The notes beneath the pieces are model-generated. The model had not been told where the DNA came from, made no database searches, and saw nothing but the letters and a program-made list of their open reading frames with translations. A stretch of 64,000 nucleotides of DNA, from the NCBI GenBank assembly GCA_038087875.1, contig CM075988.1, positions 7,628,001 to 7,692,000 on the forward strand, read 5' to 3'. The translations under genes were made by a program, and so were the position numbers. Shown one piece after another: positions 7,378 to 24,591 of this stretch. Source of the stretch: Malacoraja senta. Lineage: Eukaryota. The first letter of the stretch is position 1. Each line of letters starts with the position of its first letter.

Positions 7378-7936
7378 AGGGCCTGTCCCACTTGGCCGTC
7401 ATTTGCGCGCCATTTACGCGACCTCCAAAAGTGTGGTCGTCGTGTTGTGATGCACGGGTAACGTGTGGGTAGTGCGGGACGGGCGCATGGAGAGGCGTGG
7501 AGGAGTGTGGAGTTGCGCACGGTATCGCGTCGCGCTCCAGGATTTCGTGCTGCATGAAATCCTTGCGCACCACCTGTGTGACGTACATCACGTACGCACG
7601 CTGACGCATTGGCGTCCCAACATCTCACGTGTATCGCGTGGTGACGCATGGTTACGTCACCGTGCGTAACCATGCGTCGCCGCGCACTGCAGGGTATTCT
7701 AATGATGTCACGCGCACCAGACGGCATGATGACGCATGAGCGTAATCATGAGGATTTCGTTAGGCACGAAATCCTGGAGCGCCGCGCGATACCACGCGCA
7801 ACTCCACACTCCTCCACGCCTCTCAATGCGCCCGTCCCGCTCTACCCACATGCTACCCGTGCGTCACAATGCGTCGACCTATTTTACATATGACGCGTAA
7901 ATGAGGCACAAATGACGGCCAAGTGGGACAGGCCCT
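7378..7936. mobile_element. PIF/Harbinger-type MITE, strongly palindromic
   Basis: TIRs AGGGCCTGTCCCACTTGGCCGTCATTTG / CAAATGACGGCCAAGTGGGACAGGCCCT; TTA duplicated at 7375-7377 and 7937-7939; long internal inverted arms. Confidence 0.9.
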
Positions 7937-9050: not shown

Positions 9051-9214
9051 AGGGCCTGTCCCACTTGGGCGTCATTTGCGCGTCATTTACGCGACGAAAT
9101 TTACGCGTCGTGACGCACACGTGATGCACATATGGTCCAGGATTTTGGGATTCGCAAAACTTTCGCGCACCACCTGCGTGACGCGCAAATGACGCCCCAA
9201 GTGGGACAGGCCCT
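9051..9214. mobile_element. PIF/Harbinger-type MITE (164 bp)
   Basis: TIRs AGGGCCTGTCCCACTTGGG / CCCAAGTGGGACAGGCCCT; flanks TTA and TAA (imperfect TWA duplication). Confidence 0.85.
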
Positions 9215-18311: not shown

Positions 18312-18531
18312 AGGGCCTGTCCGACTTGGGCGTCATTTGCGCGTCATTTCTTGGCCGTCATTTGCGCGTCATTTACGCGTAACGACGCACGACGCGCGCG
18401 TCGTAATGCGCACGTGATATGCGCATGGTGCGTGGTGACGTAGGCAGTGACGCCCCAGGATTTTGCGATGTACAAAATCTTCGCACGCCATCTGCGTGAT
18501 GCACAAATGACGCCCAAGTGGGACAGGCCCT
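18312..18531. mobile_element. PIF/Harbinger-type MITE (220 bp)
   Basis: TIRs AGGGCCTGTCCGACTTGGGCGTCATTTG / CAAATGACGCCCAAGTGGGACAGGCCCT; TTA duplication on both sides; same family as 9051-9214. Confidence 0.9.
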
Positions 18532-18963
18532 TTATGTTCATGTCAGAGGAGCAGAATTTGGTCATTCAGCCCATCGAGTCTACTCCTTCATTCAATCATA
18601 TCAACCCTATGCTCCTGCCTTCTCCCCGTAATCTTTGACATCCTTACTAATCAAGTACTTATCAATCTCTACTTTAAATGACTTGGCCTCCACAGCCTTC
18701 TGTGGCAATGAATTCCACAGATTCACCACCCTCTGACTAAAAATATTCCTCATCTTTCTAAAGCTACGTCCTTTTATTCTGAGACTGTGCCCTGTGATCC
18801 TAGACTCTCTCCACATCCACTCCACCCAGGCCTGTCACTATTTGGTAAGTTTCAATGAGGTCACCCACTAACCCTTCTGAACTTATTTGTTTGTTGAAAT
18901 TATCTTATCCAATTCTGCTTTGTCATAGAGTCATACAGCACAGACACTGGCCCTTCTGCCCAA

Positions 18964-19618
18964 TAAGCGAGATTAGTATTCCGACTGCGCATGCCCAGGT
19001 CATAGGTCACTCGTGATAAACACCCTTGGCAGCCGTGCCGCTGCATGAACACAGACCCGCGCTCCATCCGCAGCCAGGATCGAACCCGGCTCTCCAGCGC
19101 TGCAAGCGCCACCAACCCGCCACTGGACGATCCACGTCCACTCCTGAGCGCCCTATCCCCGTCCGGGGGCGGCTGGAGACGCCCGAGGCGACCCCGGACT
19201 GACGGGACACCGGTCCGTTGCAGTGGCGGCCCAGGCCCACAGCCAGTGCGGAGAAGAAGCGCCAACTCCACTGCTCCGGGCCGGTGTCCTTTCAGTCCAG
19301 GGCCGCCGGTTAACCCGGCGGGACAGGCAGAGCCGAACTGGAGCCAGAGCCTCCTCTCCACGCTGGCTGTAAGCCTGGGCTACCATTGCAACGGGCCGGT
19401 ACCCCGGACAGGGACGGGACACTCGGGAAGGGACGGGACACTTGGGAAGGGACATGACAGCCCAGCAGCAACTCAACAGCGCCAGAGACCCGGGCCCGAT
19501 CCTGACCACAGACGAAATGCAGGTCTGCACCCACGCAGCTGCACAGCCGCCGAGAATGCGAGTGACCCTCGACAAATCCCATGATTCCTTGCGTTTTTCA
19601 GAATACCAAACTCGCTTA
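18964..19618. mobile_element. Unclassified TIR-bounded fold-back (rod-like) insertion, non-coding
   Basis: 21-bp TIRs TAAGCGAGATTAGTATTCCGA (18964-18984) and revcomp of 19598-19618 TAAGCGAGTTTGGTATTCTGA (3 mismatches). Internal arms 19005-19270 and 19339-19567 are imperfect reverse complements. The insertion interrupts a CR1 3' tail. Confidence 0.75.
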
Positions 19619-20058
19619 TTTGTCCATCGTGTGGATAATGTCCATATACACTCGTCCCATTTGCCCATGTTTGACCCATAATCCTCTTAGCCTTTCCGAT
19701 CCATATACCTGTCCAAATGTATTTTGAATGTTGTGATTGTACCTGCCTCAATCACTTCCTGTGGCAGTACATTCCACTTACGTATCATGTTCTCTGTGGA
19801 AAATGTTATCCCTCAGCTTCTGATTATACATTTTCCATCTCACCTTAAATCTACTCTAGCAACATTTAAGAAACATTTGGACGGGTACATGGATAGGACA
19901 GGTTTAGACTTTAGAGGGATATGAGCCAAACGCAGGCAGGTTCAACTAGTGTAGATGGGACATGTTGGCCGGTGTGGGCAAGTTGGGCTGAATGGCCTGT
20001 TTCCACTCTGTAACACCCTATCTCTATGACTTAAACCTATGCCCTCAAGTTCTTGATT
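19619..20058 (-). mobile_element. CR1 LINE 3' fragment (continues at 18923-18963), itself interrupted by a plus-strand CR1 tail at about 19851-20030
   Basis: CR1 3' UTR and ORF2-end motifs on both strands; CTCACCTTAAA resumes as TTAAACCTATG after the inner copy. Confidence 0.7.
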
Positions 20059-20210: not shown

Positions 20211-20424
20211 TTTAGCGGTTTGAGAAACGACTACTGGAGTTTCAACCAAAACCTTTATTCGAAAGTAAGTTGCAGTACACAGGTTTGTCAAACACGTCTG
20301 ACCACACTGAACTAACTCGCGCCAAGGGAAAACCGCGCGAAAACAACGGCCCCTCCCGGATCACGTGACCGCGGCTTCCGAACGCCGGGTTCGATATCTG
20401 CGTGCGCTAGGTGGCGCCGCTACA
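20211..20424 (-). repeat. 3' LTR (214 bp)
   Basis: Direct repeat of 24370-24591 with about 6 substitutions and 2 indels by eye; minus-strand AATAAA at 20254-20259. Confidence 0.95.
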
Positions 20425-20440
20425 TGCCCCCCCCCCAGAA
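20425..20440 (-). promoter_or_regulatory. Polypurine tract
   Basis: G-run on the minus strand directly before the TGTAGCGG start of the 3' LTR. Confidence 0.85.
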
Positions 20441-23400
20441 TCCGCGGTACGGAAACGCGCGGGTAAACGGACGGTGTGACCGGAACGTGTAGTCCGCGGT
20501 CGCGGGGCGAGCGTAACATTTGGGACCGGCACAACAGAACCGGAGGGACGCGAAAAATGCAAATGAGGGACGGGCATAACCAAGGGGACCGGAGAAACGC
20601 GACCAGAGAGAACGGGTGTAGAGGGTGTCAAAACGGCAGGTGGACGTCCTCTACGCCGTGGATTAGCCACTGTCACTGGGCTATCCTCATCGACATGTGC
20701 AGGCTTGAGGCGGCTCACAGAAACGAACTCCTCTCTGCCACCCATGTCCAAAGTGAATGTTGAAACCCCCACATTGAGCACCTTGTACGGACCCTCATAC
20801 ACCCGCTGTAACGGCGAGCGATGAGCGTCTCTACGGAGAAAAACAAGCACAATCCCGTAACACAGGAGGCACATGAACCGAAGATGAACCATGCCAGGAA
20901 GTGGGAACTGGGACCAAAACGTGCGCCCGCTCGCGAAGGTCCTCCAACACCTGCGAGGTGGCATTCTCCTGATCCTGGGGGGCAGGCAAGAAATCCCCGG
21001 CAAAACCGAGCCATAAACCAACTCGGCCGAGGAGGCTTTGAGGTCTTCCTTGGGCGTTGTCCTGATGCCCAGGAGGGCCCAAGGTAACTGGTCGACCCAA
21101 TCAGGGCCGGTGAGTCGTGCCTTTAACACCGACTTAAGATGTCTGTGGAATCGCTCGACCAGCCCGTTAGACTCGGGGTGGTAAGCAGTAGTTTGATGTA
21201 ACTTAGCGGCGTACATCTGCGCCATACCGCCCCATAGGGAAGATGTGAACTGGGCCCAGCAGTCTGTCGTTATATCTGAGGGGACCCCGAAACAAGCGAC
21301 CCAATTTGAGACAATGGCCCTCGCGCATGCCTCGGTGGAGGTATCCGATAACGGGATGGCCTCCGCCCACCTGGTAAACCTGTCCACGATAGTCAGTAAG
21401 TGGGTAGCCCCGCGCGAACAAGGTAAGGGACCTACCAGGTCTACATGGATGTGCAGGAACCGGCCGTCCGGGACATCGAAATCCTGGACCGGCGGGTGTA
21501 CATGTCTCTGCACTTTGGAGGTCTGGCATGGGATACAGGAACGGGCCCATGCAGCGACTTGCTTCCTCAGGCCGTGCCAGACGAACTTCGTTGCGACTAG
21601 GGCAGAGGTAGCGCGAATTGACGGGTGCGCTAAACTATGGATGGTGTCGAAGATCCGGTCTGGCTTTACCGGTGGAAACATCACAAAGGACTCGTGCGCC
21701 GGAGGCGTCGCAAGACACTTCAACCAGCTTCAGCCCTGATTCAGTGTTGTGGTAAATCCTCATACCCGTTGGGCAGCTGCCAACTCCTGGTAATCGATAC
21801 CCAGACTGAGCGCGGAGACCTCGGGCAGCGCTGGACGGGATAATGCGTCGGCCACGACATTCAGCTTTCCTGCCACATGCCGAATGTCAGACGTGAATTC
21901 TGAAATGTAGACAAGGTGCTGTTGCTGCCTAGCAGACCATGGATCAGAAACCTTGGTCAAAGCGAACGTTAGTGGCTTGTGATCGGTGAACGCGGTGAAA
22001 GCTCGCCCTTCTAGGAAATAGCGAAAATGGCGGATTGCTAGGTAAAGCGCAAGGAGCTCCCTGTCGAAAACGCTGTATTTAATTTCCGGGGCTCGCAGTT
22101 GCCTGCTGAAAAACGCCAGCGGCACCCAGCGACTGACTACCCGCTGCTCAAGGACGCCCCCCACCGCGACATCGGAGGCGTCTACGGTTAGTGCCGTTTG
22201 GGCCGAAGCCCTGGGTTGTACTAGCATAGTGGCTTTGGCCAATGCCATCTTGGCCCCTTCAAAAGCTTTCTGTGCCTCCTTAGACCAAACTAGGTCCTTG
22301 AGCTTACCGGCCAAGCATTGGAATAGCGGCCGCATGATGGCGGCTGCCGACGGGACGAAACGGTGATAGAAGTTAACCATCCCGATAAACTCCTGGAGAC
22401 CCTTAATCGACTACGCCCTGGGGAATTGCCGAATGGCGTCGACTTTCTCGGGCAGGGGTTGCGTTCCCTGGGAAGTGATACTATGCTCTAAGAACGAGAT
22501 AGAGCGCAGCCCGAACTGGCACTTCTCGGGGTTGATTACCAACCCGTGTTCGTGCAGACGTTCGAAAAGTAAGCGGAGGTGATTGGTATGTTCTGCCTCC
22601 GAGCGGCTGGCTACCAGGATGTCATCCAGGTAGATGAAAACGAACGGCAAACCCCAGCCGACCTGATCCATTAACCTTTGGAACGCCTGAGCTGCGTTCT
22701 TCAGGCCAAAAGGCATTCTGAGCCACTCGAAAAGGCCGAACGGGGTAATGGTGGCCCTCTTAGGGATGTCGTCAGGGTGGACCGGGATTTGGTTATACCC
22801 GCGGATGAGGTCGACCTTCGAGAAGATGGTCGCCCCTTCCAAATGGGCCGAGAAATCCTGAATGATTGGGACCGGATACCGGTCGGCCGTGGTTATTGCG
22901 TTTAAACGTCGATAGTCGCCGCAAGGCCTCCAACCCCCGGACGCTTTGGGCACCATGTGTAACGGGGAAGCCCAGGGGCTATCCGACCACCGGACAATTC
23001 CCATGTCCTGCATGAGCTGGAACCCGTCTCGTGCGATGGGCAGTTTATCGGGCGGGAGATTGCGCGCGCGGGCGTGCACTGGCAGACCCTCGGTGGGAAT
23101 GTGATGGACCACGCCATGACGGGGCGCGGTTCCGTCAAACCAGGGCGTGAGCAATCCTGGAGAATTGGCGAGCAGGGTCGTGAAAGGTTTCTGGATCTCA
23201 GCTACCTCGGAGATTTGCTGCGAGGGTGTTGACGGGTTGCGCGGTGTGTCAGGGCGTGGGCCCGATGCAGGGATCATTCGACCACCCCGTACATCGACTA
23301 ACAGGGAGAACGCGCGCAAGAAATCGGCGCCCAGGATTGGTTGGGCGACGTCAGCAACGATAAACTTCCACCTGTACTGGTGGGAGTCTAAATTTAGTTT

Positions 23401-23561
23401 CGCGGTCCGCGTACCGTAGGTGTGAATATCGCTCCCGTTTACAGCTGAGAGGACAGGTCCCACCTTACCCGCACGGAGGTCCCGGGTGTTTGGAGGCAGG
23501 ATACTGACATGGGCACCTGAATCTACCAGGAAACGGTGGCCGGAATGGCGATCACGGACGA

Positions 23562-23622
23562 AGAGGCGTGTGTTGGGGCCGATCGCGTTCGCCTCTATGG
23601 ACGATCGGCGGAGGCGTTTCCC
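23562..23622 (-). promoter_or_regulatory. -1 programmed ribosomal frameshift signal (G GGA AAC plus predicted H-type pseudoknot)
   Basis: Heptamer at 23616-23622 is in the gag frame and pol is open in the -1 frame; 6-nt spacer; stems GCCGATCG/CGATCGGC and AGAGGCG/CGCCTCT. Confidence 0.8.
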
Positions 23623-24326
23623 GGAAACGAACAAGGGCTTCGGCATCTTCGGGCTCCGAGCCCGTATAGCTGGTGGTAGTAGCACCATCTCCGTTGGCTG
23701 TAGGTCGATGTCCGCGACGCTTCGTCTTCGACGCTGGGCTGAGTCTCTTCCTCTCGTTGTCGGAGTGGCTGCACCCGTTGGGGCGGGCGACGGCGTGTAC
23801 GTCCCGCCGTCTGAGCGCCCAGAGCTCGTCTGCTCTTTCCGCGAGCCGCTGCGGGTCGCTGAAATCAGCTCCTGTTAACATCAGCTGCACTTCGTCGGGC
23901 ATCTGCTCTAAGAACGCCTGTTCGAAAAGCAAGCAAGGTCGATGCCCGTCCATCAGGGCCAACATCTTGGCCATGATCGTCGATGGCCTTCGGTCGCCGA
24001 TGCAGTCGATATGCAGCAGTCTTGCCGCCCTGTCTCTACGGGTCAGACCGTAAGCATGAAATAACAGGGCCTTCAACCCTTTGTACTTGCCGCTGGACGG
24101 AGGTTCTCTGATAAAGGGCAACAGCCTCGAGGCACAGTCCTGCGGTAAAGCTCCTACTTCATGGAAATACATGGTCTCATCGTGGTCGATACAATGAAGG
24201 TGGAATTGCGCTTCCACATGGGCGAACCACACTTGAGGTTGATCAGTCCATAAAGGCTGGCAGTTTGAAAGCCGGTGAGCCTTGCCTCGTGCTGGCCGAT
24301 TCTGCAGAAGGACCTTCTTCCTGCAT
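23595..24326 (-). pseudogene. gag: Gypsy gag, disrupted
   Basis: ATG at 24326 gives MQEEG...FKLPAF, then a 1-nt frameshift to WTDQPQVWFAHVEAQF...AERADELW, then a second shift to the C-terminal [21 protein letters not shown]ys/His knuckle ending in TAG. Confidence 0.88.
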
Positions 24327-24355
24327 AATTCTTCTGTCTATCGACGGCTAGACAG

Positions 24356-24368
24356 GTCGGGGTCACCA
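24356..24368 (-). promoter_or_regulatory. Primer binding site, tRNA-Trp
   Basis: Minus strand TGGTGACCCCGAC, 1-2 nt after the 5' LTR, is complementary to the vertebrate tRNA-Trp 3' end GUCGGGGUCACCA. Confidence 0.85.
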
Positions 24369-24369
24369 A

Positions 24370-24591
24370 TTTAGCGGTTTGAGAAACGACTACTGGAGTT
24401 TCAACCAAAAACTTTAATCGAAAGTAAGTTTGACAGGTTTGTCAAACACGTCTGACCACATCGGTGGTCAGCACTGAACTAACTCGCGCCAAGGGAAAAC
24501 TGCGCGAAAACGACGGCCCCTCCCGGATCAAGTGACCGCGGCTTCCGAACGCAGGGTTCGATATCTGCGTGCGCTAGGTGGCGCCGCTACA
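24370..24591 (-). repeat. 5' LTR (222 bp)
   Basis: Direct repeat of 20211-20424, adjacent to the PBS. Confidence 0.95.

What the first reader, a model, noticed from the sequence alone, without database searches (positions are those of the whole stretch)
18964..19618. 655-bp rod-like fold-back with strongly strand-biased G-U wobble pairing
Seen: nearly the whole GC-rich island is one imperfect inverted repeat. Outer arms 19021-19102 and revcomp of 19477-19558 align without gaps over 82 nt with 25 differences by my hand count. Of these, 21 become G-U pairs if the MINUS strand folds, 2 do so on the plus strand, and 2 are transversions, giving 78 of 82 positions paired on the minus strand. Inner arms 19209-19270 and 19339-19400 (62 nt) show 9 minus-wobble, 4 plus-wobble and 1 transversion. 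Two of the three TIR mismatches lean the same way. The palindromic MITE at 7378-7936 shows no such skew by eye. Neutral decay of a DNA palindrome should be strand-symmetric. Inference: the minus strand has been selected, or edited, as a folded single-stranded molecule. Candidates are a long hairpin RNA (hpRNA/endo-siRNA-like precursor), a rod-like mobile RNA, or an ssDNA transposition intermediate. It fits none of the repeat classes I recognise here.
Basis: partly seen in the sequence, partly recalled or inferred. Interest (0 to 1): 0.88.

Follow-up and report, generated by a model that had tools for sequence, protein, structure and literature searches.

The report
RNA-editing scars in a DNA transposon
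This hairpin is an old copy of a small cut-and-paste DNA transposon in which about half the A's on one strand became G's, in the pattern left by the RNA-editing enzyme ADAR, which suggests that edited RNA was written back into inherited DNA in an element not expected to pass through RNA.

Summary
The fold-back and its minus-strand G-U skew are real: 51 vs 11 wobbles, against 19 vs 22 in the control MITE. The stretch is one copy of a palindromic non-autonomous ISL2EU-type DNA transposon: at least 633 left ends, A|AT|T target, and a decayed THAP/HTH + YqaJ parent with the same ends. The skew is mutational, not selected. Against the family's perfect palindrome the copy has 47 T>C changes (A>G on the minus strand) and 2 A>G, all inside the fold-back, with ADAR's 5' neighbour order (U/A 14/16, G 8/24). 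Parent and SINE outgroups show A is ancestral. Short-read contigs carry 34 of the 47 sites. The change is family-wide: 36 of 64 scorable copies carry inherited plus-strand A>G. There are at least two editing histories, and some copies were re-made into palindromes with G-C pairs. The window copy is an edited lineage with its interior flipped. Best reading: hairpin transcripts were ADAR-hyperedited, copied back into germline DNA more than once, then spread by transposase. The reverse-transcription step is inferred, not shown. Six literature searches found no precedent.

The parts
18963..18964 (.). left AT target-site duplication (A|AT|T target)
   Evidence: AT on both sides in 65 of 79 distinct full copies; uninterrupted paralogous empty site in the host repeat, e.g. 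in L033. A no-duplication reading gives the same empty site.
18965..18984 (+). left terminal inverted repeat (20 bp)
   Evidence: same end on the decayed parent L253
18965..19072 (+). left part derived from the transposase-side end of the autonomous parent; holds NRF1-like (18986-18993) and DR1-like (18997-19009) motifs (motif names recalled, not tested)
   Evidence: parent matches family majority over positions 1-109 with 6 differences
18999..19270 (-). left arm of the fold-back; 26 of 50 T changed to C (A>G on minus strand), 0 of 50 A changed to G
19271..19308 (.). centre of the fold-back, with a partial internal duplication that allows an alternative hairpin (19187-19226/19268-19307); found in both orientations among copies; 2 of 8 T>C
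19309..19573 (-). right arm (includes the rest of the centre up to about 19338); 19 of 43 T>C, 2 of 53 A>G; two deletions against the family
19477..19507 (+). piece shared with a dispersed tRNA-type SINE (label recalled), mirrored at about 19072-19102; used as outgroup for polarity
   Evidence: matches at window 47239, 9639, 39072, 13522 and others; 51 SINE-context matches have A at the four sites edited in lineages
19550..19617 (-). right part derived from the YqaJ-side end of the parent; Staf/ZNF143-like motif at 19577-19590 (name recalled); 0 of 15 T>C outside the fold-back
19598..19617 (-). right terminal inverted repeat
19618..19619 (.). right AT target-site duplication

Best explanation
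The stretch is a dead copy of a non-autonomous ISL2EU-type DNA transposon whose interior is a ~270-bp-arm palindrome (shown). Source elements of the family were transcribed; the RNA folded into a long duplex and ADAR turned 35-60% of the paired A's into inosine (enzyme inferred from the footprint). That RNA was copied back into germline DNA, by a host reverse transcriptase (LINE/LTR hitch-hiking, or cDNA recombining into a resident copy) or by RNA-templated repair of a break at the palindrome or excision site (inferred; route unknown). This happened in at least two lineages, probably in successive rounds. The edited copies kept both ends and were multiplied by the transposase, so edits are shared across hundreds of loci (shown). 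Recombination between arms then flipped the interior (window copy) or re-copied one edited arm onto the other, turning A-T pairs into G-C (patterns shown, mechanism inferred). Edited, imperfect palindromes may have spread because they are more stable as DNA (speculative). The G-U rod is a scar, not a maintained functional RNA.
For: Spectrum: window T>C 47, A>G 2; L007 mirror A>G 58/122 vs T>C 3/129; 13 other copies 0-4 of each. Lineage majority A>G 22/36 and 20/33, T>C 0/45 and 0/25, C>T 3/67 and 0/50. Polarity: parent has A at 41, 68, 86, 88, 90, 92, 103, 109; SINE copies have A at 538 (45/51), 546 (48/51), 565 (41/51, no G), 568 (32/51, 2 G). Neighbour order 5' U/A vs G: window 14/16 vs 8/24 (p=0.001), cargo lineage 15/15 vs 14/26 (p=0.001), non-cargo 15/15 vs 10/18 (p=0.004), re-palindromised 6/6 vs 3/13 (p=0.003). 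This matches U=A>C>G and the 50-60% ceiling for long duplexes (PMC3113232, passages). Duplex-limited: 0/8 and 0/15 in the window's unpaired ends; in 10 long copies right arm A>G 16/29 but unique right end 4/93; captured gene piece 1/65. Several episodes: at 5'G sites cargo lineage vs window 4/6/3/7 (no concordance), window nested within L007 8/0/4/9. Inherited: window (inverted) and L007 agree at 59 of 86 A sites, p=8e-4, and share non-editing markers. Family.
Against: No reverse-transcription hallmark was found: the right ends examined sit in ordinary target sites without tails, and I did not screen systematically for 5'-truncated, tailed copies. The captured ZFP36-like piece spans no intron I could see, so it does not prove an RNA origin. 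L007's neighbour test is not significant (16/19 vs 15/26, p=0.1). The neighbour tests on different lineages reuse the same sites, so they are not independent. The cargo control is weak because capture may postdate editing. The A-run at positions 53-59 is unedited even in full-arm copies. The sister family has G at four sites (41, 82, 86, 90), and the parent has G at 82, so polarity there is not clean. Recombination between lineages could mimic nested rounds. ADAR can also edit DNA in RNA:DNA hybrids with the same preferences (PMC5389660, abstract).
Confidence: 0.65

Rival explanations
1. ADAR edited the DNA directly: the element's transcript paired with a DNA strand (R-loop; the palindrome lets it pair with either strand), dA became dI and was fixed at replication, with no reverse transcription.
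For: ADAR deaminates dA in DNA/RNA hybrids with its usual context preference (PMC5389660, abstract). It needs no reverse transcriptase and keeps both ends and the AT duplication intact, as seen.
Against: An ordinary R-loop would expose the template strand along the whole transcript. Here changes are confined to the palindrome and to one strand per lineage. About 50% density in perfectly matched hybrids, surviving inosine repair, would be needed (own knowledge).
Confidence: 0.15
2. A single-stranded DNA fold-back intermediate of ISL2EU transposition (for example made by the YqaJ exonuclease) is deaminated at adenines by ADAR or an unknown enzyme.
For: The parent encodes a YqaJ exonuclease of unknown role (PMC4482050, passages). 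Interior flips and arm re-copying fit fold-back DNA intermediates.
Against: Spontaneous deamination of ssDNA should raise C>T more than A>G, but C>T is 3/117. ADAR is described as needing duplex RNA or a hybrid. I know of no natural eukaryotic DNA adenosine deaminase with this preference (recalled).
Confidence: 0.08
3. Selection kept a G-U-rich hairpin as a functional RNA or ssDNA structure.
For: Minus strand folds 105 kcal/mol better than plus; edited lineages are the most numerous.
Against: Only one of the two wobble-making changes is enriched (42/69 vs 3/117, p=9e-20). The ADAR-type neighbour bias is not expected from pairing. Since insertion, copies decay by symmetric CpG loss (11-14% on each strand). 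Unedited palindromes fold better than edited ones.
Confidence: 0.05
4. Assembly or polishing artefact: edited RNA reads or hairpin-induced long-read errors entered the reference.
For: Runs X1 and X2 are of kind '?' and from one study, possibly the source samples.
Against: Zero-difference short-read contigs in two samples at flank-like depth. Edits are shared across dozens of loci and overlaid by CpG decay. A contig from another organism (X4, DNA?) is closer to the edited arm (17 differences) than the unedited majority is (29).
Confidence: 0.02

Closest known systems
ISL2EU (PHIS superfamily) DNA transposons and their MITEs (PMC4482050, PMC4122938; passages)
   Same: A|AT|T target with AT duplication; short TIRs; ~5.4-kb parent with THAP + HTH (+ DDE in a sister copy) and a second SAP-SWIM-YqaJ ORF on the other strand
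   Different: TIR starts AA, not the usual GG; long internal palindrome; captured host gene piece; inherited strand-specific A>G. That paper reports PHIS absent from sharks; this host looks like a cartilaginous fish (my inference from recalled repeats; no tool named it).
APOBEC-edited endogenous retroelements (PMC4866542, PMC2873906; passages)
   Same: A host deaminase's strand-biased hypermutation frozen in genomic copies of a mobile element
   Different: There G>A in LTR elements that reverse-transcribe by nature, with DNA transposons as the negative control; here A>G with ADAR context, limited to a duplex, in a DNA transposon
ADAR hyperediting of palindromic repeat transcripts (PMC2873906, PMC3113232; passages)
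   Same: A>G clusters in long fold-backs, 5' G depletion, 50-60% ceiling
   Different: Reported in RNA; PMC2873906 saw no such excess in high-quality DNA traces. Here it is in genomic DNA and inherited by subfamilies.
Pack-type non-autonomous DNA transposons such as Pack-MULEs (recalled)
   Same: Carry a host gene fragment (ZFP36-like, majority 98.6% identical to host gene L201) between transposon ends
   Different: No editing footprint is part of that description (recalled); the window copy itself has no cargo
Spy transposons (PMC4122938, passages)
   Same: AT-rich palindromic target that can be read as having no duplication
   Different: Target here is xAA|TTx with A at -3 in only 3 of 35; the parent has THAP and YqaJ, which Spy lacks

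Membership tests
ISL2EU | A|AT|T target, AT duplication | tested here: met
   65 of 79 full copies have AT on both sides; empty paralogous site. Cannot be told from a no-duplication reading by sequence alone.
ISL2EU | Autonomous partner with THAP + HTH + DDE transposase | tested here: met
   THAP and HTH_Tnp_4 in L253, which carries this family's left end; DDE_Tnp_4 scored in the related copy L252, whose ends I did not find. All copies seen are broken by stops and frameshifts.
ISL2EU | Second ORF with YqaJ exonuclease | tested here: met
   YqaJ PF09588 in L253; SAP start 143-152 bp inside the right end of long copies
ISL2EU | TIR usually begins GG (typical, stated as 'usually', not strict) | tested here: not met
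   begins AA; hence 'ISL2EU-type'
ISL2EU | Transposase falls in the ISL2EU clade | not tested
   no tree built
ADAR hyperediting footprint | A>G only, one strand, A ancestral | tested here: met
ADAR hyperediting footprint | 5' neighbour U/A > C > G | tested here: met
   significant in 4 of 5 lineages, p=0.1 in L007
ADAR hyperediting footprint | Limited to duplex, up to 50-60% of A's | tested here: met
   timing of cargo capture unknown; the most edited lineage reaches 61% (42/69)
ADAR hyperediting footprint | Editing seen in RNA of the element | not testable with these tools
   no RNA run was available to lay
Retroposed copy (LINE-mediated) | 3' tail, 5' truncation, long variable TSD | tested here: inconclusive
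   35 full copies show no 3-9 bp duplication; 20 right ends sit in ordinary targets; sampling by intact ends would miss retrocopies
APOBEC-edited retroelement | G>A on sense strand, derived A | tested here: not met
   direction is A>G by two outgroups
Spy | AAA|TTT target, single ORF without THAP or YqaJ | tested here: not met
Crypton (tyrosine recombinase) | DUF3504/YR partner between the ends | tested here: not met
   11 DUF3504 matches, none within a full copy; a DDE-type parent was found instead
Viroid-like / ribozyme rod RNA | self-cleaving ribozyme or Rfam rod-RNA match | tested here: not met
   6 sub-threshold Rfam hits, none a ribozyme
hpRNA / endo-siRNA precursor | phased small RNAs from the hairpin | not testable with these tools
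   no small-RNA data

The most novel reading that the evidence does not exclude
This ISL2EU-type family routinely replicated through an RNA stage: transcript, cDNA, then recombination back between transposon ends, perhaps helped by its YqaJ exonuclease. That would make it a DNA transposon with a retro step that picked up ADAR edits at each pass and captured an mRNA piece and a SINE piece the same way. Editing plus arm re-copying would act as an A-T to G-C ratchet.
Probability: 0.2. Interest if true: 0.95.

Novelty: new variant of a known kind. Interest (0 to 1): 0.8.

Why it matters
Cut-and-paste transposons are assumed never to pass through RNA; a survey of 80 genomes used them as the negative control for editing footprints (PMC4866542, passages). 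A family in which more than half of scorable copies carry an inherited ADAR-type A>G signature is fossil evidence that RNA edits reached vertebrate germline DNA, more than once. It makes the question of RNA-templated heritable change testable by sequence alone: arm-to-arm wobble skew plus 5' neighbour bias can be scanned in any genome. It also shows a route from editing to fixed GC gain (T-A to C-G at 10-13 pairs in each of 5 re-palindromised copies), may bear on the unknown role of the ISL2EU YqaJ ORF, and extends ISL2EU-type elements to a group where they were reported absent, if the host is what it seems.

Tried and rejected
No RNA holder listed in the run search; not used as evidence. Rfam: nothing at gathering level. 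Crypton lead (recalled end similarity): DUF3504 search gave 11 matches, none in an element. Forty 8-kb extensions from left or right ends held no intact autonomous element; the parent was found only through the SAP remnant. An apparent pair of mutually exclusive edits at positions 214/235 within the cargo lineage was an alignment artefact of a deletion and is dropped. A weaker hint of later editing remains: within-lineage A>G 43/549 vs T>C 49/1306, p=4e-4, which CpG reversion or mixed sublineages could also give. The 7378-7936 MITE is not a usable family-level control: other copies share only a ~43-bp TIR plus a partial match, so its long palindrome looks copy-specific; I fetched none of those hits. 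The small flank inverted repeat (19685-19733/19860-19908) shows no minus skew (4 plus, 1 minus). The neighbouring Gypsy element lies outside the MITE. Host genes L197/L198 were not the cargo source (80-83% over 153 bp); L201 was. My first neighbour tally on near-saturated site frequencies showed no preference; the per-lineage majority tally did. Earlier-findings look-ups returned nothing. No lineage tree was built; episode counts rest on pairwise site tables. Only about 17 kb around parent-like copies could be read, so a more intact parent may exist.

Full report
OBSERVATION. Over the whole arms the skew is 51 vs 11 (p=3e-7), against 19 vs 22 in the MITE at 7378-7936. The minus strand folds to -434 kcal/mol, the plus to -330. 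Zero-difference short-read contigs cover 34 of the 47 diagnostic sites in run X1 and 14 in run X2, two samples of one study. Their kind is unrecorded; I take them as DNA because their contig sets are genome-sized and cover the flank.

WHAT IT IS. It is one copy of a dispersed family: 633 left ends within 1 mismatch and 825 right ends within 2. Of 79 distinct full copies, 65 have AT on both sides inside an A|AT|T context, the target described for ISL2EU (PMC4482050, passages). Longer copies keep, 143-152 bp inside the right end, the start of an ORF whose relatives are SAP-SWIM-YqaJ proteins. Searching with one led to a decayed ~5.4-kb element (C7:12295610-12301011, L253 + L236) with both of this family's ends, THAP and HTH_Tnp_4 on one strand and YqaJ on the other; a related copy (L252) gave DDE_Tnp_4. 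The MITE consists of the parent's first ~109 bp, a GC-rich stretch with a SINE-like piece, an inverted copy of all this, and the parent's last ~70 bp. The TIR starts AA rather than the usual GG and no tree was built, so I call it ISL2EU-type.

SOURCE OF THE SKEW. The majority of 13 ordinary copies is a near-perfect palindrome (93.6%). The window copy differs from it by 47 T>C and 2 A>G, with 0/8 and 0/15 T>C in the unpaired ends. L007 is the mirror image, A>G 58/122 vs T>C 3/129; 13 other copies have 0-4 of each. I fetched the first 90 perfect left-end matches not already held; 84 were distinct, and 64 aligned over at least 100 columns (20 dropped). Of these, 36 are A>G-skewed, 7 T>C-skewed and 21 neither (the call's totals of 37 and 8 include L007 and the window). 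The changed sites are shared, so they mark lineages rather than single copies. After insertion all classes decayed alike, mainly at CpG, 10-14% per strand.

DIRECTION AND SIGNATURE. A is ancestral: the parent has A at eight left-end sites where lineages have G, and 51 SINE-context matches have A at the four edited sites of the shared piece. Exceptions: the parent has G at 82, and a sister family has G at 41, 82, 86 and 90. In the largest lineage the majority change is A>G at 22/36 and 20/33 sites, T>C at 0/70 and C>T at 3/117. This rules out selection for wobble, which would accept C>T too (p=9e-20). A's after U or A are almost always changed, A's after G much less: window 14/16 vs 8/24, and three further lineages at p<=0.004; L007 p=0.1. 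ADAR's order is U=A>C>G and long duplexes saturate at 50-60% (PMC3113232, passages). Unpaired sequence on the same copies is spared: unique right end 4/93 vs right arm 16/29 in 10 long copies. A captured antisense ZFP36-like fragment, present in many copies (40 scored of 352 candidates), differs from its host gene by 1 A>G in 65, though it may have been captured after editing.

HISTORY. Among the 78 full copies of up to 3 kb mapped (one longer copy left out; the set is enriched for cargo-bearing copies) there are perfect palindromes, copies edited on both arms of the plus strand, and 'mixed' copies. Only the window copy has T>C on both arms. Mixed copies are palindromes again: T-A became C-G at 10-13 pairs in each of 5 copies while A-T pairs stayed, meaning an edited arm was re-copied onto the other. 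The inverted window interior agrees with L007 at 59 of 86 A sites (p=8e-4) and shares non-editing markers such as 199, 528 and 591. So the two are one sublineage in opposite orientations; which orientation came first is open. At disfavoured 5'G sites the window's edits nest inside L007's (8 both, 0 window-only, 4 L007-only, 9 neither), while the cargo lineage agrees with neither (4/6/3/7 and 9/4/5/5). That points to at least two independent histories and probably successive rounds; recombination could blur this. A contig from another organism (X4) differs from the window's left arm at 17 places where the unedited majority differs at 29, so an edited relative exists beyond this species.

MECHANISM. 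Shown: family identity, strand-specific inherited A>G, polarity, duplex restriction, neighbour bias, arm flipping and re-copying. Inferred: ADAR as the enzyme (about 0.85), and an RNA substrate copied back into DNA (0.65 overall). Both parent ORFs read inward from the ends, so either end could supply a transcript (inference). The copying route is unknown: host reverse transcriptase or RNA-templated repair are the ordinary candidates, and a regular RNA step in this family's cycle is the bold one (0.2). Against it, I found no tails or truncation marks, though my sampling by intact ends would miss them. The main rival is ADAR acting on the DNA strand of an RNA:DNA hybrid (PMC5389660, abstract; 0.15), then a deaminated ssDNA fold-back (0.08), selection (0.05) and artefact (0.02).

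COMPARISON AND NOVELTY. Frozen deaminase footprints are known as APOBEC G>A in LTR elements, where DNA transposons were the negative control (PMC4866542, passages). ADAR clusters in palindromes are known in RNA and were not enriched in DNA traces (PMC2873906, passages). Six full-text searches listed no report of inherited A>G hyperediting in a DNA transposon. I saw only their listings and abstract starts, the library lacks most subscription papers and Repbase Reports, and I opened no supplements, where this family or its consensus could be listed. Also read as passages: PMC3212892, PMC4455052, PMC5753468 (Crypton lead, rejected) and PMC4122938 (Spy); searches were for classification. The host's identity as a cartilaginous fish, the SINE/CR1 labels and the promoter-motif names are recalled, not from a call.

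VERDICT. Real, explained at the level of what it is, open at the level of how RNA edits reached DNA. New variant of a known kind; interest 0.8.

Noticed in passing
L043:1815-2290; host gene L201:1547-2139 (G000:C3041): A large sublineage carries an antisense fragment of a ZFP36/TIS11-like CCCH gene (second zinc finger to C-terminus); majority 98.6% identical to the host copy; 352 candidate places. The host copy in the assembly has a one-base frameshift in the zinc-finger region that the cargo majority lacks.
   Followed up: partly
L034, L052, L078, L083, L142: Re-palindromised edited copies: one edited arm copied onto the other, giving C-G at former T-A pairs.
   Followed up: yes
L234, L235, L242, L243, L245, L246, L249: Sister ISL2EU-type deletion derivatives of about 1 kb with slightly different TIRs and no long palindrome.
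   Followed up: partly
window 20211-24591: Gypsy-type LTR retrotransposon on the minus strand, LTRs 97% alike, with protease-like, RT, RNase H and integrase frames interrupted by stops or frameshifts.
   Followed up: partly
window 7378-7936, also 9051-9214 and about 18314-18533: A second TIR MITE family (2415 candidate places); the 7378 copy has a long palindrome that other copies seem to lack, and no wobble skew.
   Followed up: partly
L007:969-1456: The edited right end plus about 420 bp of flank is tandemly duplicated (487-bp unit).
   Followed up: no
L142-L146 (G000:C4152); L011, L014, L015, L018, L021-L024; L220-L231: Groups of copies with identical flanks, i.e. amplified inside larger duplicated units on small scaffolds; whether those units are retroelements was not checked and bears on the hitch-hiking route.
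   Followed up: no
window 18986-19009 and 19577-19590: Promoter-like motifs at both ends (NRF1-like, perfect AGGTCA direct repeat, Staf/ZNF143-like; names recalled), well kept across copies.
   Followed up: no
L059, L061, L095, L049, L032, L042: Copies with both A>G and T>C in one arm, possibly a second round of editing after arm re-copying, or misalignment.
   Followed up: no
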